From positions 1-24,777 of the IMG/VR virus record IMGVR_UViG_2778261216_000008: a stretch of DNA of 24,777 bases, one strand, 5' to 3'. Position 1 is the stretch's first letter; the number at the start of each line of letters is the position of its first letter. Below, piece by piece: positions 1 through 10,323 of this stretch. The DNA is from a virus (Duplodnaviria > Heunggongvirae > Uroviricota > Caudoviricetes). The notes under the pieces were generated by a model. That model worked only from the letters and a program-made list of their open reading frames with translations, was not told the origin of the DNA and made no database searches. Both the position numbers and the translations under genes were made by a program.

Positions 1-114
1 TTCGCGTGAAAGGTAAGTATTCTGCGCAATCTCCCCGACTGTCGCCGGTTCGGTGACGCTTAATTCATTAAACACCACTCTGGCAGTTTCTGTCATATCC
101 TGCTGTTTCAGCAT
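1..114 (-). CDS. 5' end of an unidentified gene running off the left edge (MLKQQDMTETARVVFNELSVTEPATVGEIAQNTYLSRE...)
   Basis: ATG at 114..112 preceded by purine-rich GGAAAAGGGAAAAAGAC; open to the window edge; too short for the ORF track; product not recognised. Confidence 0.3.
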   Translation of the reverse strand, partial: MLKQQDMTETARVVFNELSVTEPATVGEIAQNTYLSRE

Positions 115-236
115 GTCTTTTTCCCTTTTCCGGTTAACGTGACACACCAATAACTCTTGTCGAAAAAGCCAGCAAGCTGAAAGACCGGTATGCACCGCCG
201 CCAGCGCGTTTACTGTACTGGACAGATTTCAGCCAT

Positions 237-262
237 AAAAAAACCCGCTCGCAGCGGGTTTA
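237..262 (-). terminator. rho-independent terminator hairpin, U-tract on the minus strand
   Basis: AAAAAAA-CCCGC-tcgca-GCGGG-TTT on plus; on minus the GC stem is followed by 7 T. No plus-strand ORF ends upstream of it. Confidence 0.55.
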
Positions 263-306
263 AGCTGTGTGGCGAAGTAACCACTCTTAACACGATACAA
301 TAATTT

Positions 307-335
307 TTGCGTACGCGTTAGCGCTTTTGTATATT
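307..335 (+). promoter_or_regulatory. candidate sigma70 promoter of the 369-1932 operon
   Basis: TTGCGT (307-312), 17-bp spacer, TATATT (330-335), about 35 nt upstream of the ATG at 369. Confidence 0.4.
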
Positions 336-368
336 CAGCTTAATCCTATGTATTTATGGAAAAATAAG

Positions 369-1400
369 ATGAGCAAGCGTGAAATCAAAACTAAAAAAAT
401 AATCTATAAAGAAGTCACAATGTCAGGTGTGTCAAAGACGCTCCAGTCGATGCTAATGGAACTGCTCAAAAAACACACTAAAGCAGATTCTCGCAAGGAA
501 ATGGTCAACCCAGGAGAGGAAGACTTATTCCGATTAATTAATAAACATGAAGAGTTCCAGGGAATGCTGTTTTGCCAGCTTGTTGCCTTCGAACCAGGCC
601 ATTCTCAACGCTATATACAGCTTAAAAATGATGCTGAATCTTATGAAATAAGATCCGTAACATCAGATGAACTTTCTAAAATGACTGTTGAAGAAGCTGA
701 AGAAGCACGCACAGAGAGGGAACAGGTTGTGCGTGAGTTTATAGATTCAATTCTTTATTTCGGTGTATTTGGTAACAGCATCGTAGTAATGCAATCCAGA
801 TCTCTTACAACAAGAGAACTTGAAACACATCTGAAATGGTTACTTGGCTCTTTAAGCAATTACTTAGGCGCAGAAAACATCTTAAAAGTTTCCGATAAGC
901 CCAAAGAAGAGATCATTGAGGAAGTTCTAAAACGACCTGTAAAATCAGTTTCTATAGGTGCCCCTGTAACTGCCGTTAACGAATTTAGTCAAGGAAGCAA
1001 AAGCCCAGGCTGGGTTCCCGCAGGAACTGCCTCTGAACTCCTTAAAGCTATGTTAGCAGAGAAATGGGAAAGCTTCTTACGTAGTAGCAAGCTTGAAGAT
1101 TGTCTTGATGACGCTAATCTTGAAGTAACGCTGAAAATCACATACAAGAGGAAAACTTCTGATTCAGGAGAAAGGATGTTAAGAAATCTTGTTGACGCTA
1201 CCAGACACTACCCGGATGATGACGTCGTTGTTGAAATGGTTGGCGGGACGCGTTTAACTGGTAAAGAGATTCGTTTATGGAATACTGTTAAACTCACAAC
1301 TTACAATAGCTTAATTGATGAACATGAACTATATGGCCAAATGCATGATTGGATGGTCGCTCTGATCAACAATGGAGAAATAGAAGAGACCGATGAATAG
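369..1400 (+). CDS. hypothetical soluble protein (about 343 aa), first gene of a two-gene cargo operon; no recognisable motif
   Basis: ORF 327..1400 in track; ATG 369 (MSKREIK) chosen, alternatives TTG 327 and ATG 420; charged, helix-rich, no Walker or obvious catalytic motif; AT-rich relative to flanks by eye. Confidence 0.65.
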   Translation: MSKREIKTKKIIYKEVTMSGVSKTLQSMLMELLKKHTKADSRKEMVNPGEEDLFRLINKHEEFQGMLFCQLVAFEPGHSQRYIQLKNDAESYEIRSVTSDELSKMTVEEAEEARTEREQVVREFIDSILYFGVFGNSIVVMQSRSLTTRELETHLKWLLGSLSNYLGAENILKVSDKPKEEIIEEVLKRPVKSVSIGAPVTAVNEFSQGSKSPGWVPAGTASELLKAMLAEKWESFLRSSKLEDCLDDANLEVTLKITYKRKTSDSGERMLRNLVDATRHYPDDDVVVEMVGGTRLTGKEIRLWNTVKLTTYNSLIDEHELYGQMHDWMVALINNGEIEETDE

Positions 1401-1932
1401 AGAGGCTGCTAAGTGCATATCCTACCAACAACCAAGTAGAGCATTCCACTTGGTTGTTGTAGTATTGCTTATGTCTACAGCCTGGTTTATCGCCAATAAG
1501 TACATCATTTTAACATCCATTCCTTGGGGCGTATTAACTATCCTCATCTTACCAATTGCAAGTAGCGCAACCCTGTTTCATAAGTTATCTGAAACCCAAA
1601 AAAACGTTGCTGAGGATTTATCTCGCAATGAACAAAGAAGGTTAACAAGGCTTATTAAAGAAAAAAGCCGGGCAACATTATTCATGCTTACGCTACAAAT
1701 TTCGATAATAATTTTTGTGGCATTGATTAGCCTTGGCAATGAGTCCTCTTTTGTTCAACAGCACATTCATACTATAAGTAAATTCGTTGTTTGTGCTTTG
1801 GTTTTTTCACTATACTCATTAATCCCTGTTTTACTAGGGGTAAAGGAAGTCATTGATTTTGAAGGGTTAATAAAAACACGAAAAACATTAAATAAGCGTA
1901 AAAAATCTGCATTATCCAAGCTTGGGAAGTAA
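1393..1932 (+). CDS. small integral membrane protein (179 aa, about 4 predicted TM segments, basic C-terminal tail)
   Basis: ATG 1393 overlaps the upstream stop (ATGAATAG); hydrophobic stretches LVVVVLLMSTAWFIA, GVLTILILPIASSATLF, LFMLTLQISIIIFVALISL, FVVCALVFSLYSLIPVLLGV. Confidence 0.7.
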   Translation: MNREAAKCISYQQPSRAFHLVVVVLLMSTAWFIANKYIILTSIPWGVLTILILPIASSATLFHKLSETQKNVAEDLSRNEQRRLTRLIKEKSRATLFMLTLQISIIIFVALISLGNESSFVQQHIHTISKFVVCALVFSLYSLIPVLLGVKEVIDFEGLIKTRKTLNKRKKSALSKLGK

Positions 1933-1944
1933 TCCAAGCTTGGG
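1914..1944. repeat. 12-bp direct repeat TCCAAGCTTGGG x2, each with the palindrome CCAAGCTTGG, at the convergent junction with Q
   Basis: Copies at 1914-1925 (inside the end of the membrane-protein gene) and 1933-1944 (between the two convergent stop codons). Confidence 0.5.
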
Positions 1945-1953
1945 TTAGCACTC

Positions 1954-2310
1954 TTAAACCATTCTCAGAACACCATCAATAAAACCTAAAGCAGTTTGCA
2001 ATTCCTTTCTGATCGTACCATCTGAGCATTTCCGCTTCTTTGCAATTGTACGGAGCGAAACCCCAATAACAAAATGTGCGATTATCAGCTCATATTCTTC
2101 AGGCCTATATTTACGCAACCGAGCCACACAACTGTCTATCATAATGCCTTCGTCATCATCACACTGAATCCGGGACTTTTTGCCATGAGGTAAAAGCCCC
2201 TTGAAGCCAGCGGCTACCGGTTGCCAGTCCACTCCGCTATTGTCTGAAGCAGCCCAAGCCCCCCAACGATCCATCACTTCATACATATCACGCATCAACT
2301 TTCTCCACAA
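1954..2310 (-). CDS. Q: late-gene antiterminator Q, QuuD-like small Q family
   Basis: 118 aa; MRDMYEVMDRWGAWAA...AAGFKGL...RIQCDDDE...CSDGTIRKELQTALGFIDGVL resembles DLP12 QuuD as recalled from memory; last gene of the leftward early operon. Confidence 0.7.
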   Translation of the reverse strand: MWRKLMRDMYEVMDRWGAWAASDNSGVDWQPVAAGFKGLLPHGKKSRIQCDDDEGIMIDSCVARLRKYRPEEYELIIAHFVIGVSLRTIAKKRKCSDGTIRKELQTALGFIDGVLRMV

Positions 2311-2312
2311 AA

Positions 2313-3308
2313 TCAGGACAGCACACCAATCGCCAGCGCGCGATCGATAAAACGAAATATCAGCTCCAGTTGGGAACCATACTTCTCTTCAAATGCCACG
2401 GTATCCGCATGCAGTTCGTCATGGTGTTTTCTGCACAAAGGCAACACAAAAAGGTCATGCGCTTTTGTACCCATTCCACCCTGACCATGGCCAATCAGGT
2501 GATGCGGATCGTCGGCTGGCTTACCACAACATGCACACGGCTGCGTCTTAACCCAGCGCGTGTACTTTTCATTAACCCAGCGACGACGTTTGGGGCGTAA
2601 CATAAAAGACTCCGGCGACTCCGGATCCACTTTCAGCGCCAGCACCTTTTTCGCTTTATCCCGGATGATGCTGGTGGCGAGAACCGAAGGCACAAGGTCA
2701 CTTTCCCGGGTAACAGACGGCACAACAGTCTTCGGTAATCTCAGTGCCTTACGGGCTGCACTTTCCGGTAAGGCATCTGCCAGGTCATTACGAACCAGCC
2801 ACCAGCACAGTTCCGGCATTGTCACAACGTGACTGTCATCAAAACCGAGATCCCGGCGCACAACAGACAACACCCAGCGGGCACAGTTATCCGTTGCCAT
2901 TGCTTCCAGCCGTTCCGTGAACTGATCGCGCAGCTGGTTATCGCAGTGCCAGCACAGACGGATTGCGCCCGGCGCGTGCCGCATTGTGGTCATGTTCTCG
3001 CTGTGCCATCCGGAATGAGGCCACTGACAGCCCTTTTCACGAAGTAACCAGCTTTCAAGACATTCCACGCCACCAGCACGACGAATAACTGCCTCATTGC
3101 GGAACACGGCCCGAACGGCAGGATCATCCGCTAACGGTTGTGATGCCGCCGGAACGGCACCACTGGCAAAAGATGAATAGCGTTCCGGCTCAGGCTCCAG
3201 CAGGACACGTCCCTGCATAAACAGGGGCATCAGCTCTGAACCTGGTCTGAACAGTACGATCCCCATTCGCGGGGCAATTTCAGGAGTCAACAATGCTCTC
3301 ACGGTCAC
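2313..3308 (-). CDS. prophage protein with C-terminal Cys/His-rich HNH-like motif (possibly DUF968 family)
   Basis: 331 aa; C-terminus CACCGKPADDPHHLIGHGQGGMGTKAHDLFVLPLCRKHHDELH; GTG start; family assignment from memory only. Confidence 0.55.
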   Translation of the reverse strand: MTVRALLTPEIAPRMGIVLFRPGSELMPLFMQGRVLLEPEPERYSSFASGAVPAASQPLADDPAVRAVFRNEAVIRRAGGVECLESWLLREKGCQWPHSGWHSENMTTMRHAPGAIRLCWHCDNQLRDQFTERLEAMATDNCARWVLSVVRRDLGFDDSHVVTMPELCWWLVRNDLADALPESAARKALRLPKTVVPSVTRESDLVPSVLATSIIRDKAKKVLALKVDPESPESFMLRPKRRRWVNEKYTRWVKTQPCACCGKPADDPHHLIGHGQGGMGTKAHDLFVLPLCRKHHDELHADTVAFEEKYGSQLELIFRFIDRALAIGVLS

Positions 3309-3353: not shown

Positions 3354-3611
3354 TCACGCAGTAAACTCCTTCACCAGAGTTTCAAACTGGCTTACCTTGC
3401 CTTCCAGTTCCGCCACGCAATCCACCAGCTCATCCACCGCCTTTTGTGTGCGGTGTTTTGCCTGCAGCAGATCACGAAGCGCCGGAGTAAGCTGCTTGCG
3501 GAGCGTATCCTTTGCCACGCTCATTTTTTCCATCTGTTCAGCACAACGAAGCATCTCCTGCGCCTGGCGACGAAGTTGTTCCGGTGAAACAGTGGCTGTT
3601 CTGTTGTTCAA
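3354..3611 (-). CDS. hypothetical small protein (85 aa, coiled-coil-like)
   Basis: ATG overlaps the DnaB-like stop (ATGA); no recognisable domain. Confidence 0.5.
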   Translation of the reverse strand: MNNRTATVSPEQLRRQAQEMLRCAEQMEKMSVAKDTLRKQLTPALRDLLQAKHRTQKAVDELVDCVAELEGKVSQFETLVKEFTA

Positions 3612-5008
3612 AATAAACGCTCCGTTTTACTACCCGACATGCGGTTATTGCTGTATCTGCGCGGAGTGCCCGGCGTCATGGGAGTGGAAAGAACCCGGGC
3701 ACTCTCCTGGTCCACAGGCAGAAAATGCCCGTTATGAAAACGCCGGTAAATGGTACCCAGCGTGCCATTACGCTGTTTCGTGATGTTGATTTCAGCTATG
3801 CCTCTCGCCTGTGTCTCCGGGTTGTACACCTCATCCCTGTAAAGCATCAGAATGATGTCTGCATCCGCCTCTATTTCCCCTGAGTTTTTCAGGTCCGAGT
3901 TCATGGGGCGTTTATTGGGTCTGGATTCCACACCGCGGGAGAGCTGGCTCAGAGCAATCAGCGGAAAACCGCCGGATTTTGCCAGGCTTTTTAGTCCCTT
4001 TGAGATTTCCCCCACAGCAAGGTCGTGACGCCCCGTGCTGCGGGTTTTAATCAGGCCGAGGTAATCGACCACCACCAGCGCCGTTTCCGGGTGTTTCATC
4101 CGGTGGTGCCTCGTGGTTGCACATATCTCATCAATGGTCAGGTTTGCCTGGTCCACCATCCAGATATTACGCCCCGTCATTCGTCCCACGCCCTGTGAGA
4201 AACGCGCCCAGTCTTCGTCTTCAAAACGGGCAACAGACTTAAGACGGGATACCGGCATTCCCCCGGCAGCAGACACCATACGTTCACCAATCTGAATGTT
4301 CGCCATCTCCATGGTGAACAGAAGCACGCCATGCCCCTGCTCAGTCACCTTGTCGATGATATCCAGCGCAAGTTCGGTTTTCCCCATCGAAGGACGAGCC
4401 GCAATGAATACCAGGTCGCCTGGCTCCATACCGCCCGTTTTTGCGTCCAGTTCATCAATACCGGTCATCAACGCCCTGGATTTCTCCAGTCCCTGATTGC
4501 GGCATTCAACACGGTCGACCACTTCCGGAAGGACATCATCAATGTGAACCGGCTGAATGACGCCCTTTCCGGTCGACAGTGAGGCCATCATGTTCTGCGC
4601 ATCCTTCAGGGCATCCTCGGCTGCTTCACAGGTATACGCATCACGTAAATTCTGTAATGCTTCAGTCAGTGTTTTTTCTGCATCGCGCAGTGCGGCATTA
4701 CGCCGCAACGCTGCGACATAGTGCTCCAGTGAAGACTTCACCCAGGTTTTGCGTCCGGTGTCGGTAATCACCGGGGCAAGTTCCGGCATCTCATTGCACA
4801 GCAGTACGGGGTCAATGACGCCGGATACACGGGCCTGTCTGCAAATTCCCGCGTAAATATCCCGGTACTGTCGTGCAGAAAAAACGTCCGCCGACAATGT
4901 GGCCAGAATATCCATCACTTCCGGATCAGCCCCACGCAGAAAAAACGCACCGATGACAGCTCCTTCCAGGTCATAATTACGCCACGCCGGATTTGTCGGG
5001 TTTGTCAT
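3608..5008 (-). CDS. DnaB-like replicative DNA helicase
   Basis: Walker A ARPSMGKTELALDI plus DnaB-like C-terminal domain; start MTNPTNPAW overlaps the DnaC-like stop (ATGA). Confidence 0.85.
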   Translation of the reverse strand: MTNPTNPAWRNYDLEGAVIGAFFLRGADPEVMDILATLSADVFSARQYRDIYAGICRQARVSGVIDPVLLCNEMPELAPVITDTGRKTWVKSSLEHYVAALRRNAALRDAEKTLTEALQNLRDAYTCEAAEDALKDAQNMMASLSTGKGVIQPVHIDDVLPEVVDRVECRNQGLEKSRALMTGIDELDAKTGGMEPGDLVFIAARPSMGKTELALDIIDKVTEQGHGVLLFTMEMANIQIGERMVSAAGGMPVSRLKSVARFEDEDWARFSQGVGRMTGRNIWMVDQANLTIDEICATTRHHRMKHPETALVVVDYLGLIKTRSTGRHDLAVGEISKGLKSLAKSGGFPLIALSQLSRGVESRPNKRPMNSDLKNSGEIEADADIILMLYRDEVYNPETQARGIAEINITKQRNGTLGTIYRRFHNGHFLPVDQESARVLSTPMTPGTPRRYSNNRMSGSKTERLF

Positions 5009-5895
5009 GCTGCCACACCTCTGATATGCGCACGGTAGCTTTCCCAACCAAACACCAGGCAGTTACGCCCACCATCAGTAACGCGATCCACAATCCGTTC
5101 ACCAATGGATTCCTTAAGCTGTTCAAACGTCAGGTTGCTGATCAAAATTGTCGGTAAAATGCTTTCGTAACGCGCATTTATGATTTCCTGCAGGATGGTT
5201 ATCTCCGCAGGCGTACCGAACTGCACACCAACCTCATCGATGATAAGCAGATCCAGCGATGCAAAATGATTAATCACTTCATCGTCAGTGCGCTCAGAGT
5301 TGTGGCGCCAGGTATTTTTCACCGCACGGGTAAGCCGCATTACATCCGTGATTTCTATGGTTGCCTGGTGGTGGCGAATAATATTTTTTGCCATTGATAC
5401 AGCCAGGTGATTTTTACCGGTACCACAATTGCCAATCATGACCATGCTGGTGCCTGCAGCGAGACATTTCTTCCAGGAAGCGGCATAGCGCTGACAGGCT
5501 TCAAGGTTTTTCTGTGCGTCAGTATTCACCGCCTGATAATTCTCAAACTCACAGTCCTGGAACCGGCGGGCAATACCGGCCTGATCGAGTAATTCACGAA
5601 CCTTCAGGGCGCGTAATTCGTCATACACGCGGTCCAGCTCCTCACTGAGGCAGGACAGGCAACCGGACACCCGTTTGACAGCTTTCCCCCTTACATCCGG
5701 GCCCGTCAGCACATAGCGCGTGTATTTTCCGTGTTTCCCGCAGGACACCGTCTCAGTGCTTTGCACCCAATGCTCACAGCGCCACGGACGCTTTCCGCCA
5801 CGGACAAATGCCAGCTCCTCTTCCAGGTCTGCCTTGCGGTTAAGTAACTGCGCTTTGTCGTGTTGCATGTGTTGTTTGTTCAGGAAATTAGTCAT
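5005..5895 (-). CDS. DnaC-like (IstB-type AAA+) helicase loader
   Basis: Walker A GNCGTGKNHLA, Walker B LLIIDEVG; start MTNFLNKQ after RBS GGGAGGG. Confidence 0.85.
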   Translation of the reverse strand: MTNFLNKQHMQHDKAQLLNRKADLEEELAFVRGGKRPWRCEHWVQSTETVSCGKHGKYTRYVLTGPDVRGKAVKRVSGCLSCLSEELDRVYDELRALKVRELLDQAGIARRFQDCEFENYQAVNTDAQKNLEACQRYAASWKKCLAAGTSMVMIGNCGTGKNHLAVSMAKNIIRHHQATIEITDVMRLTRAVKNTWRHNSERTDDEVINHFASLDLLIIDEVGVQFGTPAEITILQEIINARYESILPTILISNLTFEQLKESIGERIVDRVTDGGRNCLVFGWESYRAHIRGVAA

Positions 5896-6826: not shown

Positions 6827-7047
6827 ACGGCACCTCCCAGACGCTTAAACATTTTTCCGGACTGAAACGCCACCAGCGGATAACTCAGGGTATGAGTACG
6901 TCCCTGAACCTGGCAGACAACCTTCTGGCTTTCTGTATTGACCAGGCAAACCCGCAGAACGTGTCCATTGCTGGTGGTGAACCACTGCCCCACACGGGGG
7001 CAATGGTTGTATCGGTGATACAGGAAATTAACGATGTGGCGGATCAT
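6823..7047 (-). CDS. hypothetical small protein (74 aa)
   Basis: ATGA start/stop overlaps on both sides within the operon; no recognisable domain. Confidence 0.45.
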   Translation of the reverse strand: MIRHIVNFLYHRYNHCPRVGQWFTTSNGHVLRVCLVNTESQKVVCQVQGRTHTLSYPLVAFQSGKMFKRLGGAV

Positions 7048-7238
7048 GGACGCACCTCCGCCGTAGTTACGTATTTAACCGGGCTACCTTTCATTGAGAT
7101 GGTTTCACACATCTCTGCCGCTTTCAGTTCTGCCGTTTTTCTGGATTTATAGCGACGGTGCCAGACAGATACATCCGTGCGAACTGATACATCGTTTCTG
7201 TATTCAGTTGTGGAAATAATAATTTCGTAACTAATCAT
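7044..7238 (-). CDS. hypothetical small protein (64 aa)
   Basis: ATG 7238 after RBS GGAGG, overlapping the upstream stop; track ORF 7044..7253 trimmed to this start. Confidence 0.45.
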   Translation of the reverse strand: MISYEIIISTTEYRNDVSVRTDVSVWHRRYKSRKTAELKAAEMCETISMKGSPVKYVTTAEVRP

Positions 7239-7597
7239 GGACGCGCCTCCCACTGATTACGGCGGAAAGCGGTAAGATTCAGGCTGTTCCCTGCCTCATG
7301 GAATGCTTCAATGCAGCTCTCGTAGTACCGCATTGTGCGTAGACTTAACCCAAGCTGAAGCATCATCAGGCCATCAAAGGTGATGTAATAACCACGCAGG
7401 GAGTCACCATAGATGTGATAAGTACCCGGTATGAAATTGCGGGTAAAAAATTCGCGCGAGCAGTTCAGATACTCGATTTTGTCGACGATGTTCTGGTGCA
7501 TGCGCTTGAAATGGCAGGCAACATGCAGGGAGAAAATAACGGCCTTGCCGTTGACGACTTCGATTTTCAGGTATGGGGAAGTTGGGTCTGTAGCCAT
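7235..7597 (-). CDS. Rha-family (Phage_pRha-like) protein, diverged paralogue 2
   Basis: 120 aa from ATG 7597 after conserved GAGGCTGCCATC; GKAVIFSLHVACHFKRMHQNIVDKIEYL and YYITFDGLMMLQLGL parallel the Rha core of the upstream paralogue. Confidence 0.55.
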   Translation of the reverse strand: MATDPTSPYLKIEVVNGKAVIFSLHVACHFKRMHQNIVDKIEYLNCSREFFTRNFIPGTYHIYGDSLRGYYITFDGLMMLQLGLSLRTMRYYESCIEAFHEAGNSLNLTAFRRNQWEARP

Positions 7598-7890
7598 GAT
7601 GGCAGCCTCCGTATGCAATGGATAACTTCCACCACCGGAAACGCCAATTTCGCTGGTGGTGAACTGAGCAGGGTTGGCGTAACCGGCGCATACGGAAACC
7701 GGCGCACCTTTCGGTGCCCCCACCCAGCCCACCATAATTTGGGTATAGCTGAGTTGTAGCAACAAAAAAGACGCTAACGCGCCAATTGTCGCCGTATGCA
7801 ATTCTAGGACGCCAATCCCGGCACCCGTTTTATAAGGTGCCTGAACAGTGTAACGTCCCGGAATGGCAGAATCAATATTCAGGTAGCGGA
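7598..7890 (-). promoter_or_regulatory. structured leader 2 upstream of Rha paralogue 2 (candidate cis-regulatory RNA/attenuator)
   Basis: Shares a 42-nt near-identical 5' block, CCCAAATTATGGTGGG and the RBS block with leader 1; hairpin GGGGCACC-GAAA-GGTGCGCC (7701-7720); GC stem + T6 at about 7764-7783. Confidence 0.5.
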
Positions 7891-8442
7891 TCATAGACGC
7901 ACCTCCTTGTCAGAACCATTCAGCCTGGAATCAACAAGTGCAGCACCAAAAACAGCATCACCTACACGGTCGTACAGTTTGCTGGCCAGCGGAGATTCAA
8001 CAGCCTTAAGCATTGGATAAAGCTGGCTTGTCCAGATTTGATGGATTTCACGCAAATGCAGGTATACGCCTCTGGCGTTTCGTGCGACAGCTGACATATC
8101 AGACGCATCGGCACCTGATAAACTCTTCTCCATCTGGTTAAAGGCATTGATGTATGCCTCTTTGAACCTGGCTGCACGTTTACCAGTGAAGCCCATGGCA
8201 AGAAACGCAAAACCGTCGCGGGTGATTTGATAGCAAGGTAGTTTGCGGCCTGTGCAATCAGTGTAATCACTCACCGAAAAATTGCGGGCAGTGAGTGATG
8301 CGGAACATTCAAGCGTGCGGATCTTTTTCAGTACATCGTCATGACGTTTGGAGAAGAAGTTGGCAACAGCCAGGGATGAAGTAACAGCCTGACCATCAAC
8401 GATGGCAATTTCAGGTTGAGTGAGGGTTGGGATCGTAGCCAT
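7891..8442 (-). CDS. Rha-family (Phage_pRha) regulatory protein, paralogue 1
   Basis: 183 aa from ATG 8442 after RBS AAGAGG; GQAVTSSLAVANFFSKRHDDVLKKIRTLE...YQITRDGFAFLAMGFTGKRAARFKEAYINAFNQME matches the Rha domain pattern. Confidence 0.7.
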   Translation of the reverse strand: MATIPTLTQPEIAIVDGQAVTSSLAVANFFSKRHDDVLKKIRTLECSASLTARNFSVSDYTDCTGRKLPCYQITRDGFAFLAMGFTGKRAARFKEAYINAFNQMEKSLSGADASDMSAVARNARGVYLHLREIHQIWTSQLYPMLKAVESPLASKLYDRVGDAVFGAALVDSRLNGSDKEVRL

Positions 8443-8738
8443 GATGGCAGCCTCTTTGGTGATTTTTAATAACTCACCACCAAGGCTTTCCACGACCTTA
8501 TTGGTGGTGAGACGTACAGGGGTGGAAATACCGGTCACCAAAGAACCCGGCCCAACCGAAGTTGGCCCTGCACGCCCCACCATAATTTGGGCGTAATGCT
8601 GCTCATGACACAAAAAAACCGCAAGAGCGCGGCTGTGCGCTTTGGTGAATTCCGGGTTTCCACGCCCGGCACCCGCTTTATAAGGTGCCTGAACAGTGTA
8701 ACGTCCCGAAATTGAGGAATCAATATTTTGGAGAACAA
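8443..8738 (-). promoter_or_regulatory. structured leader 1 upstream of Rha paralogue 1 (candidate cis-regulatory RNA/attenuator)
   Basis: Hairpin GGCACC-N10-GGTGCC; hairpin GGGCCAAC-UUCG-GUUGGGCC (8549-8568); 11-bp stem CTCACCACCAA/TTGGTGGTGAG (8473-8511); GC stem + T7 (8612-8633). Confidence 0.5.
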
Positions 8739-9563
8739 TCATGCAGCACCCGCCAGTTCTTTATCGTGGGTGAATTCGCCATTCCAGTTTCTCTTCATGG
8801 GTAATGCACCTCTAAGATACTGGCGATAAATCCAGACCGCCCCTTTCTGGAGAAGAACTGGTGTATACGAATAAAACCCTTCTTCATAACCTGAATCGAT
8901 ATAGTGGTGACGTTCGGTCAGATACAGATCTCGGGCATATGCCTTTACACGCCATGCGGGGCTTCGCGATTCAGGACGCTCGTCATAAAGCCAGTTGTGA
9001 GCCTCCAGAAATGCTGTGATACGCTGAACATTTACTCCATTAAGTTGCTTGCAGAACTGAACCGGTGTCATGCCAGGCTGGAATAAATTTTCCAGATGTT
9101 CGATGTATTGGGCCTGACGATGAACGTAACTAATTGCTCTGTTTTTAGCCTCATATTCATCCGCCCAGGCACGGGCAGCAGCAGCCGGATCGCTAAAATC
9201 TGGTAGGGATGTCATTGTGGTAAGACTGTAATTCCCCGTTTTACGAATTGACGGAATTACCTCCGATGTAATCCACCGTTTAAAACGTCTTGCCTGTTTT
9301 TTTCGACTTTTGATAATCAGCGCATAGAGCCCGGATTCATTGACCAGCAAAGGCTTACGTCCCGAACCTAAGTAATCCTTATATTCGGTTTTATCTTCAT
9401 CATCGATGGACTGAAGGGAGATAGCAGTATTTGTCAGCCCCAGCGCGTTACATATATCCACGGCAAAAAACCATGGTGTTGAATCAATGACCACACTACG
9501 AACTGATGACAACAATTCACCAGTGCTTGATTTAAAATCGAAAACTTTGATATTGTTTTTCAC
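8739..9563 (-). CDS. Bro-N domain antirepressor-like protein
   Basis: GTG 9563 after RBS GGAGA; N-terminus KVFDFKSSTGELLSSVRSVVIDSTPWFFAVDICNALGL is Bro-N-like; track ORF trimmed at the upstream stop. Confidence 0.65.
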   Translation of the reverse strand: MKNNIKVFDFKSSTGELLSSVRSVVIDSTPWFFAVDICNALGLTNTAISLQSIDDEDKTEYKDYLGSGRKPLLVNESGLYALIIKSRKKQARRFKRWITSEVIPSIRKTGNYSLTTMTSLPDFSDPAAAARAWADEYEAKNRAISYVHRQAQYIEHLENLFQPGMTPVQFCKQLNGVNVQRITAFLEAHNWLYDERPESRSPAWRVKAYARDLYLTERHHYIDSGYEEGFYSYTPVLLQKGAVWIYRQYLRGALPMKRNWNGEFTHDKELAGAA

Positions 9564-9615: not shown

Positions 9616-10323
9616 TTATTTCTGCCAACCAATAACCTGAAATACCCCCATTTTCGGGTAATACCAGCAAGTCCCTCGCGGTTCTGCTTCCTCCATAACC
9701 CGATAAAAAGCAGCCATAAACGGTTCCACAGCAACAATTGCGCGACGAGACAACAATCCATCCGGCCTCATGAACTCATGGGGGTCGGTAGGGATCTGAT
9801 ATGCGTTCACCAGATTGCGGCATTTCGCATCTGACATACCCGTTTTCGCCGCCAGCTGACGATAGCCTGCATAACCATCGCGTATGGCGCCTCTTTTGAT
9901 TTGTTCGACAGTTTCAGTAACGTGGGTGACTTTCTCTTCCACCTGCTCAAGACGTCTTTGTTGGCGAACAGCTTCAAGCGCCATTGCAGCAACCATTTCG
10001 ATCTGGCTCATTGGTTTGCGGATTTGTTCTTCCAGTTCGCGCCAGCGGTCTACCAGACGGGCGGTGAATTCAGGGCAAAGCTGTGCGACAACAATGATGC
10101 TGTCGCGTTTGCCTCGTTCACCTTCGAATACATACGCGCTAGAAAATCGGCGAGGGCCAAGTGATTGTTTATTCTCAATTTCCACAGACTGTGGAAATTG
10201 GATGATTCCCTTTTTAGCCAGTGTTTCAATAGTTCTCTTAACACTATCTGGTCTGCTTCCCACCAGCTCAGCTATCTCAATACTGGTCATGGATGCTTTA
10301 TCGGTAAAAATTGTTGTATTCAC
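9616..10323 (-). CDS. Rha-family N-terminal domain regulatory protein (in the cII position)
   Basis: 235 aa; TSIEIAELVGSRPDSVKRTIETLAKKGII...SIIVVAQLCPEFTARLVDRWRELE is Rha-like; ATG overlaps the cro stop (ATGA). Confidence 0.6.
   Translation of the reverse strand: MNTTIFTDKASMTSIEIAELVGSRPDSVKRTIETLAKKGIIQFPQSVEIENKQSLGPRRFSSAYVFEGERGKRDSIIVVAQLCPEFTARLVDRWRELEEQIRKPMSQIEMVAAMALEAVRQQRRLEQVEEKVTHVTETVEQIKRGAIRDGYAGYRQLAAKTGMSDAKCRNLVNAYQIPTDPHEFMRPDGLLSRRAIVAVEPFMAAFYRVMEEAEPRGTCWYYPKMGVFQVIGWQK

What the first reader, a model, noticed from the sequence alone, without database searches (positions are those of the whole stretch)
7598..8738. Two paralogous ~300-nt structured leaders before tandem Rha genes, with covarying tetraloop hairpins
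Each tandem Rha gene has a ~300-nt leader. Both share a near-identical 42-nt 5' block containing the hairpin GGCACC...GGTGCC, a 16-nt block CCCAAATTATGGTGGG and the RBS/start block. Between these they diverge but keep structure at matching positions: GG-G-CCAAC-UUCG-GUUGG-G-CC versus GG-G-GCACC-GAAA-GGUGC-G-CC (same G/G mismatch, compensatory stem changes, two different stable tetraloops), a CACCACC/GGTGGTG stem before the RBS, and a short GC stem with U6-7 mid-leader. This suggests cis-regulatory RNA (attenuator, or antisense-type control as in P1 c4 and P22 sar) rather than protein constraint. Both leaders are also open in frame from an ATGA-overlap start, so a translated N-terminal extension is not excluded.
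Basis: seen in the sequence. Interest (0 to 1): 0.75.

Follow-up and report, generated by a model that had tools for sequence, protein, structure and literature searches.

The report
Two P4/P1-type antisense-RNA immunity cassettes
The two "leaders" are tandem copies of a known phage control cassette (an isrK-type decoy RNA, then a C4-type antisense RNA, then its target sites on the ribosome-binding site of a Rha gene), each with its own pairing specificity. This is a new example of a known system, not a new kind of RNA.

Summary

- **Identity.** On the minus strand, each ~300-nt leader holds an isrK RNA (RF01394) with an intrinsic terminator, followed by a C4 antisense RNA (RF01695). All four hits score above Rfam's gathering cut-offs.
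- **Target pairing.** The C4 hairpin-2 loop (a') and junction (b') are perfectly complementary to two sites downstream. One of these, a2, overlaps the Shine-Dalgarno of the Rha gene. The same two sequences recur inside isrK (a1, b1).
- **Specificity.** The two cassettes differ in both a' and b', so they should not cross-react.
- **Covariation.** Across 43 distinct homologous leaders there are 8 a' loop variants and 6 junction variants. The targets covary with them (95.9% of cells paired, against 34-44% in slid controls).
- **Known relatives.** P4 (seqA–CI–seqC–kil), Gifsy-1 (isrK–orf45–anrP) and P7 (a1b1–c4–icd) have the same layout.
- **Reading frame.** The frame in phase with Rha never contains a stop in 25 leader clusters, while the other two frames hold 86 and 136 stops. 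Yet it evolves without amino-acid constraint (pN/pS 0.84, against 0.22 for Rha).
- **Annotation.** Pfam's "Ash" domain and PGAP's "ash family protein" are translations of this RNA cassette.

Verdict: a new member of a known kind, of modest interest.

The parts
8695..8723 (-). Distal cassette: putative promoter, TTGATT (8723..8718), 17-nt spacer, TACACT (8700..8695), 6 nt before the first base of isrK
   Evidence: Read from the sequence. The -10 aligns with P4 TATAGT and Gifsy-1 TATATT in A3. It matches only 8 of 12 consensus positions, so the promoter scan did not call it. Inferred, not shown.
8612..8688 (-). Distal isrK-type RNA (the a1b1 decoy). It carries b1 (8663..8657), a1 (8648..8640) and an intrinsic terminator (stem 8634..8617 plus U7).
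   Evidence: RF01394, 65.3 bits against a gathering score of 50. Weak c4-a1b1 hit at 8701-8649. Terminator. a1 and b1.
8500..8587 (-). Distal C4-type antisense RNA. a' loop UCUUUGGUGA (8544..8535), b' UUUCCAC (8528..8522), and an in-frame AUG at 8583..8581 in the 5' strand of the outer stem (equivalent to the Gifsy-1 orf45 start).
   Evidence: RF01695, 83.6 bits against a gathering score of 45. Complementarity. Covariation.
8451..8493 (-). Distal target region: b2 GTGGAAA (8493..8487), TTGGTGGTGAG (8483..8473), a2 TCACCAAAGA (8462..8453) overlapping the SD AAGAGG (8456..8451).
7891..8442 (-). Distal cargo: Rha-family gene (183 aa from ATG 8442). PGAP calls the 283-aa ORF starting at 8742.
   Evidence: Pfam Phage_pRha, 105.5 bits. 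PGAP annotation. pN/pS 0.22.
7847..7875 (-). Proximal cassette: putative promoter, TTGATT (7875..7870), 17-nt spacer, TACACT (7852..7847).
   Evidence: Identical to the distal copy. Inferred by homology.
7764..7840 (-). Proximal isrK-type RNA: b1 TTGGCGT (7815..7809), a1 GCATACGG (7799..7792), terminator (stem 7783..7770 plus U6).
   Evidence: RF01394, 54.9 bits..
7652..7739 (-). Proximal C4-type antisense RNA: a' UCCGUAUGC (7696..7688), b' ACGCCAA (7680..7674), in-frame AUG at 7735..7733.
   Evidence: RF01695, 80.7 bits..
7606..7647 (-). Proximal target region: b2 TTGGCGT (7647..7641), GGTGGTG (7636..7630), a2 GCATACGGA (7616..7608) overlapping the SD GGAGG (7610..7606).
   Evidence: The MFE fold pairs a'/b' with a2/b2 in cis.
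7235..7597 (-). Proximal cargo: short, diverged Rha-like gene (120 aa from ATG 7597). PGAP calls the 219-aa ORF from 7894 an 'ash family protein'.
   Evidence: Pfam Phage_pRha, 28.6 bits, just under the gathering score of 29.9. PGAP annotation.
7235..8742 (-). Two long pass-through ORFs (8742..7891 and 7894..7235), linked to their neighbours by ATGA stop/start overlaps. Their N-terminal ~100 codons are the cassettes, read in the frame of the cargo.
   Evidence: Stop-free frame in homologues.

Best explanation
Each leader is a P4/P1-type RNA immunity cassette placed in front of an antirepressor-like (Rha) gene. The two cassettes sit in tandem in the early-right operon of a lambdoid E. coli prophage, between the cro-like gene and the replication genes.

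**What the sequence shows**
- A cassette has five parts in order: a weak sigma-70-like promoter; an isrK-type small RNA ending in an intrinsic terminator and carrying sites a1 and b1; a C4-type RNA with an acceptor-like outer stem, a tetraloop hairpin, and a second hairpin whose loop is a', followed by the single-stranded b'; sites b2 and a2, identical in sense to b1 and a1, with a2 covering the Shine-Dalgarno of the cargo gene; and the cargo ATG.
- a' and b' are perfectly complementary to a2/b2 and to a1/b1 within a cassette, but not between the two cassettes.
- Across homologues the targets change together with the loops.

**What is inferred from P1/P7, P4 and Gifsy-1**
- Transcripts from the cassette promoter mostly stop at the isrK terminator and yield the small RNA.
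- Read-through transcripts yield C4, either processed or still part of the mRNA. C4 pairs with b2/a2 and blocks ribosome binding at the Rha start, probably followed by Rho-dependent termination in the untranslated cargo. This keeps Rha and the downstream genes silent in the lysogen.
- The isrK RNA carries mimics of the targets. It competes for a'/b' and so relieves the block.
- Because the two cassettes differ in both a' and b', each Rha gene is controlled separately.

**The reading frame (inferred)**
- The frame in phase with the cargo is kept free of stops through the whole cassette, with no amino-acid constraint.
- My reading is that ribosomes arriving from the upstream gene on long operon transcripts read through the cassette. 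This would unfold the RNA structures and the terminator hairpin and bypass the masked ribosome-binding site, so lytic-phase expression escapes the RNA control.
- I recall P4's nested kil/eta genes being described in this way, but I could not retrieve that paper.
For: - **RNA family hits.** Rfam hits for C4 and isrK are above gathering in both leaders, and in 20 of 20 (C4) and 19 of 20 (isrK) representatives of divergent homologous leaders.
- **Complementarity in the window.** Distal a' has 10 nt to a2 and 9 nt to a1; distal b' has 7 nt to each of b2 and b1. Proximal a' has 9 and 8 nt; proximal b' has 7 and 7 nt. There are no cross-cassette a/b matches.
- **Complementarity in homologues.** In all 43 unique leaders, an 8-10-nt a2 ends 8-11 nt before the ATG and a 7-nt b2 is present. 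These leaders carry 8 different a' loops and 6 junction variants, recombined in mosaic fashion.
- **Pair counts on A2.** 95.9% of cells are paired, against 34-44% when slid. 8 of 10 a'-a2 pairs and 4 of 5 hairpin-1 pairs show changes on both sides. 0 of 500 shuffles reach the observed score.
- **Positive controls.** The same search on P7, P4 and Gifsy-1 finds a'/b' at the same C4 positions, with a2 on the SD of icd, kil and anrP.
- **Homology to P4 and Gifsy-1.** The whole leader aligns with the P4 immunity region and the Gifsy-1 isrK locus, including the -10 box and the GGAGGCTGCCATCATGGCTAC start block (Rfam on P4, P7 and Gifsy-1).
- **Experimental precedent.** In Gifsy-1, IsrK made in trans pairs with the downstream C4-like region and switches on orf45/anrP translation. 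A processed RNA, STnc1160, lies downstream of IsrK (PMC4825925).
- **Terminators.** Both isrK copies have an intrinsic terminator.
- **Frame kept open.** 0 stops in the in-phase frame, against 86 and 136 in the other two, across 25 leader clusters. There are 0, 22 and 18 distinct stop columns respectively.
- **Frame-restoring indels.** Deletions of -1 and -2 nt occur together in the L011-type leaders in A2.
- **Start contexts.** An ATGA start at -99 to -101 codons follows at least five different upstream genes, and 12 contexts are fused in frame to a longer upstream ORF.
- **No protein-level constraint.** Substitution rates are equal at the three codon positions. pN/pS is 0.84, against 0.22 in Rha.
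Against: - Nothing here shows transcription, processing, or repression in this strain.
- The promoter matches only 8 of 12 consensus positions and was not called by the scan.
- a1 is weak (5-7 nt) in one common leader family, so the decoy role may not be universal.
- Whether C4 acts as a processed trans RNA or only in cis within the mRNA cannot be told from sequence. The MFE of the proximal leader pairs a'/b' with a2/b2 in cis.
- Rha has not been shown to be an antirepressor.
- The purpose of the open frame is inferred. The P4 kil/eta paper it leans on could not be retrieved and is cited from memory.
- In P7 and Gifsy-1 the frame is closed on one side of C4, so an open frame is not a general property of the cassette.
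Confidence: 0.8

Rival explanations
1. The leaders act only in cis, as a structured mRNA switch or attenuator. The C4 fold and the a'/b'-a2/b2 pairing form within one transcript, the isrK terminator acts as an attenuator, and no stable processed C4 RNA acts in trans.
For: The MFE of the proximal leader already pairs a'/b' with b2/a2 in cis and buries the SD. The Gifsy-1 work explains control mainly through alternative structures within the long transcript, plus IsrK in trans.
Against: P1/P7 c4 and P4 CI are processed, trans-acting immunity RNAs (literature; RNase P substrate noted in PMC2190699). A processed STnc1160 species exists in Gifsy-1. The diversification of a'/b' into many specificities, and their difference between cassettes of one locus in 19 of 20 loci, is what selection against cross-talk in trans would produce.
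Confidence: 0.15
2. The leaders are purely non-coding, and the open frame is a by-product of G+C-rich, conserved RNA sequence.
For: No third-position excess and pN/pS near 1. Another frame of the distal leader is also open for 67 codons. In P7 and Gifsy-1 the frame is interrupted.
Against: 0 stops against 86 and 136 in the other frames, over leaders as little as 44% identical. About 40 distinct stop columns lie in the other frames and none in phase. Paired indels restore the frame. ATGA-coupled starts follow five or more different upstream genes, and there are in-frame fusions of 182-500 codons.
Confidence: 0.1
3. The leaders encode a genuine folded N-terminal protein domain (the Pfam 'Ash' domain) of the Rha proteins, and the RNA resemblance is secondary.
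For: Pfam PF10554 matches aa 15-106 and 15-111 at 57-60 bits. PGAP annotates the long ORFs. The frame is always open.
Against: pN/pS is 0.84 in that frame, no different from the other two frames, against 0.22 for Rha. Substitutions are spread evenly over codon positions. The divergent stretches keep base pairing, not residues. In P4 the family matches the obsolete 137-aa 'cI' ORF that overlies CI RNA, not the epsilon protein. No solved structure matches.
Confidence: 0.03

Closest known systems
Satellite phage P4 immunity region (PLE – seqA – CI RNA – seqC – kil, with the nested longer ORF)
   Same: The window's leaders align with it from the -10 box to the cargo start. It has isrK and C4 Rfam hits in the same order. 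a'/b' sit at the same C4 positions, with targets upstream and on the SD of the first gene. It has the same GGAGGCTGCCATCATGGCTAC start block. A long ORF (8812..8168) runs through both RNAs in the same frame, and the 65-codon kil-sized gene is nested at its end.
   Different: The cargo is a Rha-family gene rather than kil followed by epsilon and alpha. P4 has a 78-nt insertion between the isrK-like element and CI. The window has two cassettes in tandem inside a lambdoid early operon. The Rho-dependent terminator timm (PMC3177188) was not tested here.
Salmonella Gifsy-1 isrK – orf45 (STnc1160) – anrP locus (Hershko-Shalev et al. 2016, PMC4825925)
   Same: It has isrK plus C4 Rfam hits, b2/a2 on the SD of the cargo, and an AUG in the 5' strand of the C4 outer stem. 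Translation of the ORF that overlies C4 was shown experimentally there.
   Different: orf45 ends in an ATGA overlap with anrP in a different frame, and a stop lies two codons before its AUG. In the window the same AUG is in frame with Rha and the frame stays open upstream through isrK. The cargo is an ORF6N protein, not Rha. The locus lies after the Q-like gene, not between cro and O.
Phage P1/P7 immI: a1b1 – c4 – a2b2 – icd – ant1/ant2 (Citron & Schuster 1990)
   Same: It has a C4 hit and an a1b1 element upstream. a' and b' are complementary to two pairs of sites, with a2 on the SD of the next gene. P1 and P7 differ in specificity, as the two window cassettes do (from the literature; see PMC12197685). 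ant2 is nested in frame within ant1.
   Different: The upstream element scores as c4-a1b1 (RF03163) rather than isrK. The frame through c4 stops before icd. The cargo is Icd followed by a KilAC-domain Ant. The P1/P7 operon is under a C1 operator; no operator was looked for here.
Phage N15 cA RNA / antA-antB-antC anti-immunity locus
   Same: blastn of the distal leader hits the N15 'cA secondary immunity repressor' region and its terminator (H107 and H108).
   Different: The similarity is only 155 nt at 72% identity, and it was not analysed further.
Phage P22 sar RNA
   Same: It is a small RNA that limits antirepressor translation.
   Different: sar is a true cis-antisense RNA transcribed from the opposite strand across the ant start. 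No Rfam hit or opposite-strand element of that kind was found here.

Membership tests
Rfam RF01695 C4 antisense RNA | Covariance-model score at or above the gathering threshold (45 bits) over the full model | tested here: met
   83.6 and 80.7 bits, model positions 1-87 of 87.
Rfam RF01695 C4 antisense RNA | Outer stem plus two hairpins, maintained by compensatory changes | tested here: met
   99.7%, 98.1% and 100% of cells are paired in the three helices. 4 of 17 outer-stem pairs and 4 of 5 hairpin-1 pairs change on both sides.
Rfam RF01695 C4 antisense RNA | Single-stranded a' and b' complementary to a2/b2 at the ribosome-binding site of the downstream gene | tested here: met
   The layout is the same in P7, P4 and Gifsy-1.
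Rfam RF01695 C4 antisense RNA | Processed from a longer transcript (RNase P) to a stable RNA of about 77 nt that represses in trans | not testable with these tools
   This needs RNA mapping. The 3' ...CACCA end resembles a tRNA acceptor end, which is an observation only.
Rfam RF01394 isrK | Covariance-model score at or above the gathering threshold (50 bits) | tested here: met
   65.3 and 54.9 bits, model positions 1-77 of 77.
Rfam RF01394 isrK | Ends in a Rho-independent terminator | tested here: met
   Stem 8634..8617 plus U7, and stem 7783..7770 plus U6.
Rfam RF01394 isrK | Has its own promoter directly upstream | tested here: inconclusive
   TTGATT, 17 nt, TACACT matches 8 of 12 positions and was not called by the scan. 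It aligns with the P4 and Gifsy-1 -10 boxes.
Rfam RF01394 isrK | Hfq-binding small RNA that activates downstream translation in trans | not testable with these tools
   Shown only for Gifsy-1 (PMC4825925).
Rfam RF03163 c4-a1b1 | Covariance-model score at or above the gathering threshold (46.7 bits) | tested here: not met
   Distal 22.6 bits (E 0.0066); nothing in the proximal cassette. The a1 and b1 sequences themselves are present, and the region scores as isrK instead. In Gifsy-1 both models hit the same DNA.
P4-type immunity region | Collinear homology from promoter through seqA, CI and seqC to the first gene's start | tested here: met
   Alignment A3; Rfam hits on P4.
P4-type immunity region | Rho-dependent terminator within the first translated gene, activated when its translation is blocked | not tested
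   No tool is available for Rho sites. Inferred only.
Pfam PF10554 Phage_ASH (as a protein domain) | HMM score above the gathering threshold (26 bits) | tested here: met
   59.8 and 56.8 bits.
Pfam PF10554 Phage_ASH (as a protein domain) | Evolves under amino-acid-level purifying selection, as a real domain should | tested here: not met
   pN/pS is 0.84, against 0.22 for Rha. There is no third-position excess.
Pfam PF09669 Phage_pRha (cargo) | HMM score above the gathering threshold (29.9 bits) | tested here: met
   The distal gene scores 105.5 bits. The proximal gene scores only 28.6 bits, just under the threshold.

The most novel reading that the evidence does not exclude
The cassette is a doubly read element. 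Its RNA structures and pairing sites carry the immunity function, while a reading frame with no amino-acid constraint is kept open only so that ribosomes can pass through. On operon-length transcripts, translating ribosomes would melt the isrK terminator and the C4 fold and bypass the masked ribosome-binding site. The same DNA would then be 'RNA-controlled' when transcribed from its own promoter and 'control-proof' when transcribed and translated from upstream. Arrays of two or three such cassettes with non-cross-reacting specificities would give lambdoid prophages several independently gated antirepressor-type genes ahead of the replication genes.
Probability: 0.35. Interest if true: 0.55.

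Novelty: new member of a known kind. Interest (0 to 1): 0.3.

Why it matters
1. It explains two 300-nt stretches that genome annotation currently presents as protein ('ash family protein', 'Ash domain'). They are RNA immunity cassettes, and neither RNA is annotated in the RefSeq record.
2. Pfam PF10554 matches the DNA of P4 CI RNA, not the P4 epsilon protein. This affects studies that use PF10554 as an epsilon marker or that discuss an 'Ash domain of unknown function' in Stx phages.
3. Tandem cassettes with different pairing specificities, found in a quarter of the related loci sampled, form a natural set of orthogonal antisense/target/decoy triples. They would be useful for studying how RNA-based immunity specificities diversify.
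4. A stop-free frame with no amino-acid constraint is a clean, testable case of translation being selected for its effect on the RNA rather than for its product.

Tried and rejected
- Whole-length RNAduplex of C4 against the targets gave uninformative full-length duplexes, because it ignores intramolecular structure. I replaced it with exact-complement searches.
- The promoter scan found nothing at its threshold, so the promoter rests on homology only.
- My first codon-frame run mis-registered locus L014, which has a 1-nt deletion just after the ATG. The three apparent in-phase stops come from that row.
- The MAFFT alignment A2 places b2 of the winD-type rows one column off. This lowers the b'-b2 helix to 81% paired. 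The exact-match search shows a 7-nt b2 in all 43 leaders.
- The papers on P4 kil/eta (Forti et al. 2002) and on RNase P processing of C4 (Hartmann et al. 1995) are not held. What I say about them is from memory.
- A PDB sequence search with the 100-aa leader translation found nothing.
- I did not run structure prediction or the large protein searches, because the substitution analysis already answers the coding question.
- P22 sar-type opposite-strand antisense control was considered and dropped, since there is no such element or Rfam hit.
Full report
**Context.** The window is identical to part of a prophage in E. coli strain 89-3156 (H31). All genes of interest are on the minus strand and lie in one operon. 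The order is: a cro-like regulator, a 235-aa Rha-family regulator, a BRO-N protein, the two ORFs of the finding, two small ORFs, and then replication genes (an O-like HTH protein, a DnaC-like ATPase and a DnaB-like helicase). RefSeq annotates the two ORFs at full length: 283 aa as 'Rha family phage regulatory protein' and 219 aa as 'ash family protein'. It annotates no RNA gene there.

**Checking the observation.** Rfam identifies them. Each leader holds an isrK hit (8688-8612, 65.3 bits; 7840-7764, 54.9 bits; gathering 50) followed by a C4 antisense RNA hit (8587-8500, 83.6 bits; 7739-7652, 80.7 bits; gathering 45). All four hits cover the full model.

- The near-identical 5' block is the region just upstream of isrK plus its first hairpin.
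- The GC stem with a U run is the isrK terminator.
- The 16-nt block is the 5' flank and 5' strand of the C4 outer stem.
- The two tetraloop hairpins are C4 hairpin 1.
That is the only correction needed.
- The full leaders fold better than shuffles (z = -3.6 and -5.4).

**Anatomy.** Exact-complement searches show that, in each cassette, the loop of C4 hairpin 2 (a', C4 positions 44-53) and the single-stranded stretch after it (b', positions 60-66) are complementary to two sites between C4 and the Rha start.

| Element | Distal cassette | Proximal cassette |
|---|---|---|
| a' pairs with a2 | UCUUUGGUGA – 8462..8453 | UCCGUAUGC – 7616..7608 |
| b' pairs with b2 | UUUCCAC – 8493..8487 | ACGCCAA – 7647..7641 |
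| a1, inside isrK | 8648..8640 | 7799..7792 |
| b1, inside isrK | 8663..8657 | 7815..7809 |

In both cassettes a2 overlaps the Shine-Dalgarno, 10 nt before the ATG. The a1 and b1 sequences have the same sense as a2 and b2. No a or b site of one cassette matches the C4 of the other.

Upstream of each isrK lies TTGATT, 17 nt, TACACT, then 6 nt. This matches 8 of 12 promoter consensus positions, too weak for the scan. However, its -10 aligns with TATAGT of P4 and TATATT of Gifsy-1 at the equivalent place.

**Homologues.** I collected 80 viral contigs using only the Rha core protein as query, so the sample is blind to the leader. They give 43 distinct upstream leaders in 25 clusters at 95% identity, and some pairs are as little as 44% identical.

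- All 20 cluster representatives scanned have a C4 hit 55-58 nt before the Rha ATG, and 19 have isrK.
- The leaders carry 8 different a' loops and 6 junction (b') variants, in various combinations.
- Every leader has an 8-10-nt perfect a2 ending 8-11 nt before the ATG, and a 7-nt b2. b1 is 6-7 nt in 42 of 43. a1 is 8-9 nt in about 60% and weaker in one family.
- On an alignment of 21 distinct C4-to-ATG segments, 95.9% of cells pair, against 34-44% when partners are slid. 8 of 10 a'-a2 pairs and 4 of 5 hairpin-1 pairs change on both sides. No shuffle of 500 reaches the observed covariation.
- The CACCACC/GGTGGTG pairing is 95.9% pairable but invariant within this set. P4 has GCUAUCGCC/GGCGAUAGC at the same two places. 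This gives modest support for a real alternative to the C4 outer stem.

**Comparison with characterised systems.** The same Rfam scan and complement search were applied to three known systems. All give the same layout: an isrK or c4-a1b1 element, then C4, with a'/b' at the same C4 positions and a2 on the SD of the next gene.

| System | Locus | First gene after C4 |
|---|---|---|
| P7 | L082 | icd |
| P4 | L083 | a 65-codon ORF at 8365..8168, which I take to be kil |
| Gifsy-1 | L084 | anrP |

- The window's leaders align with the P4 immunity region from the -10 box to the shared start block GGAGGCTGCCATCATGGCTAC.
- The fragment used as the P4 Rho-dependent terminator timm (X51522 8365-8209; PMC3177188) begins at that ATG.
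- In Gifsy-1, experiments showed three things: IsrK supplied in trans pairs with the C4-like part of the read-through transcript and turns on translation; the 45-codon ORF starting in the C4 5' strand is translated and coupled to anrP; and a processed RNA (STnc1160) lies downstream of IsrK (PMC4825925).
- The cargo genes differ between systems: ORF6N in Gifsy-1, Icd plus a KilAC Ant in P7, and Rha here. The cassette is therefore a portable control unit.
- blastn also links the leader to the N15 cA region.
- APSE phages have been reported to carry both RNAs next to a BRO-N gene (PMC7313666).

**The reading frame.** The frame in phase with the Rha ATG has no stop in the last 300 nt of any of the 25 cluster representatives. 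The other two frames hold 86 and 136 stops. Counted as distinct alignment columns, this is 0 against 22 and 18, once the mis-registered L014 row is set aside.

- Length differences are net multiples of three. They include a -1 and a -2 deletion about 28 nt apart in the L011-type leaders.
- In 34 of 47 contexts an ATG lies 99-101 codons upstream in an ATGA overlap with the preceding gene, behind at least five different upstream sequences.
- In 12 contexts the frame runs on for 182-500 codons into the upstream gene, and one of those has a second Rha/HTH domain at its N-terminus.
- Substitutions in the leader are spread evenly over codon positions (for example 0.151/0.158/0.155). The Rha gene shows the usual third-position excess (0.105/0.088/0.254).
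- pN/pS is 0.84 in the leader frame, against 1.04 and 0.88 in its other two frames. Rha gives 0.22.

The frame is therefore kept open, but the peptide is not conserved as a protein. This agrees with the remark, attributed to the Gifsy-1 study, that orf45 is conserved as nucleotides but variable as amino acids (PMC12197685).

The AUG that starts Gifsy-1 orf45 is present in both window cassettes (8583..8581 and 7735..7733) and is in frame with Rha. In Gifsy-1 the ORF ends in an ATGA overlap with anrP. In P4 a 214-codon ORF runs through both RNAs in the same frame, with the 65-codon gene nested at its end. In P7 the frame stops just after c4.

**Mechanism.**

*Shown by sequence and comparison:* the parts, their order, the cassette-specific complementarity, and the covariation of loops with targets.

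*Inferred from the P1/P7, P4 and Gifsy-1 literature:*
- Transcripts from the cassette promoter mostly end at the isrK terminator.
- Read-through gives C4, which pairs with b2/a2 and blocks initiation at the Rha SD. Rho-dependent termination probably follows, which would also keep cassette-initiated transcription out of the replication genes.
- isrK carries target mimics and titrates C4.

*My own inference:* the open frame lets ribosomes coming from the upstream gene on operon-length transcripts read through the cassette. That would prevent the terminator and C4 from folding and bypass the masked SD. I recall this logic from work on P4's nested kil/eta genes, but I could not retrieve the paper.

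**The 'Ash' name.** Pfam PF10554 matches residues 15-106 and 15-111 of the two long ORFs. That span covers the DNA from the -10 box to the first codons of Rha. In P4 it matches the old 137-aa 'cI' ORF that overlies CI RNA. The epsilon protein is a different family, PF25738. The family therefore describes the translation of the RNA cassette. Papers have used it as a marker for epsilon (PMC8628076) or discussed it as a domain of unknown function in Stx phages (PMC8951638).

**Tandem arrays.** Within 1.5 kb of the Rha gene, 20 of the 80 loci carry two or three cassettes. The a' loops differ between cassettes of a locus in 19 of the 20. In the E. coli genome collection, 92 of 5,426 genomes hold at least 80% of the two-cassette stretch.

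**Verdict.** The elements belong to families that are already described and partly characterised. New here are the placement in front of Rha genes inside a lambdoid early operon, the tandem cassettes with separate specificities, and the quantitative evidence that the frame is held open without amino-acid constraint. I rate it a new member of a known kind, with interest about 0.3.

Noticed in passing
window 7906..7891, 7250..7235, 7059..7044 (minus strand): A 16-nt junction, GGAGG[T/C]GCGTC[C/T]ATGA (an SD plus an ATGA stop/start overlap), occurs at three successive gene boundaries, with 0 expected in shuffles. Similar junctions precede the leader ORF in other loci. It may mark the points where gene modules are exchanged.
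   Followed up: partly
L083 (phage P4) 8168..8584 and 7888..8175: Pfam PF10554 'Phage_ASH' matches the obsolete 137-aa 'cI' ORF that overlies CI RNA, not the epsilon (helper derepression) protein, which is PF25738. At least one study used PF10554 as the epsilon marker for P4-like satellites (PMC8628076).
   Followed up: yes
L001 (NZ_CP027366.1) 3559..5066; L086 970..1308: PGAP annotates the cassettes as protein ('ash family protein') and annotates neither RNA. In another genome it flags such an ORF as a pseudogene 'missing C-terminus' upstream of an Icd-like gene, which is simply the P1-like arrangement.
   Followed up: partly
L046, L069, L076, L011, L016 and others: Arrays of two or three isrK–C4 cassettes lie about 370-850 nt apart, with different a' loops in 19 of 20 multi-cassette loci. 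One locus has two cassettes with identical a' and b'.
   Followed up: partly
L007 763..2046; L028 283..2058; L074 70..2052: In some phages the upstream gene has no stop and runs in frame through the cassette into Rha, giving ORFs of 428-661 codons. L007 has Rha/HTH domains on both sides of the cassette and lacks isrK.
   Followed up: partly
window 9616..10323 and 8739..9563 (minus strand): Two more antirepressor-type genes (a 235-aa Rha/HTH protein and a BRO-N protein) lie directly upstream of the cassettes without any C4 or isrK element. The operon therefore carries four such genes in a row between the cro-like gene and the replication genes.
   Followed up: no
L014 about 1498-1503: One homologue has a 1-nt deletion just after the Rha ATG (ATGCTACG instead of ATGGCTACG). 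This breaks the frame and is either a sequencing error or a pseudogene.
   Followed up: no
window 8483..8453: In the distal cassette only, the conserved UUGGUGGUGA also resembles a' and is predicted to form a local hairpin with a2 (UCACCAAAGA) that buries the SD in the MFE fold. This could be a cis backup to C4 pairing.
   Followed up: no
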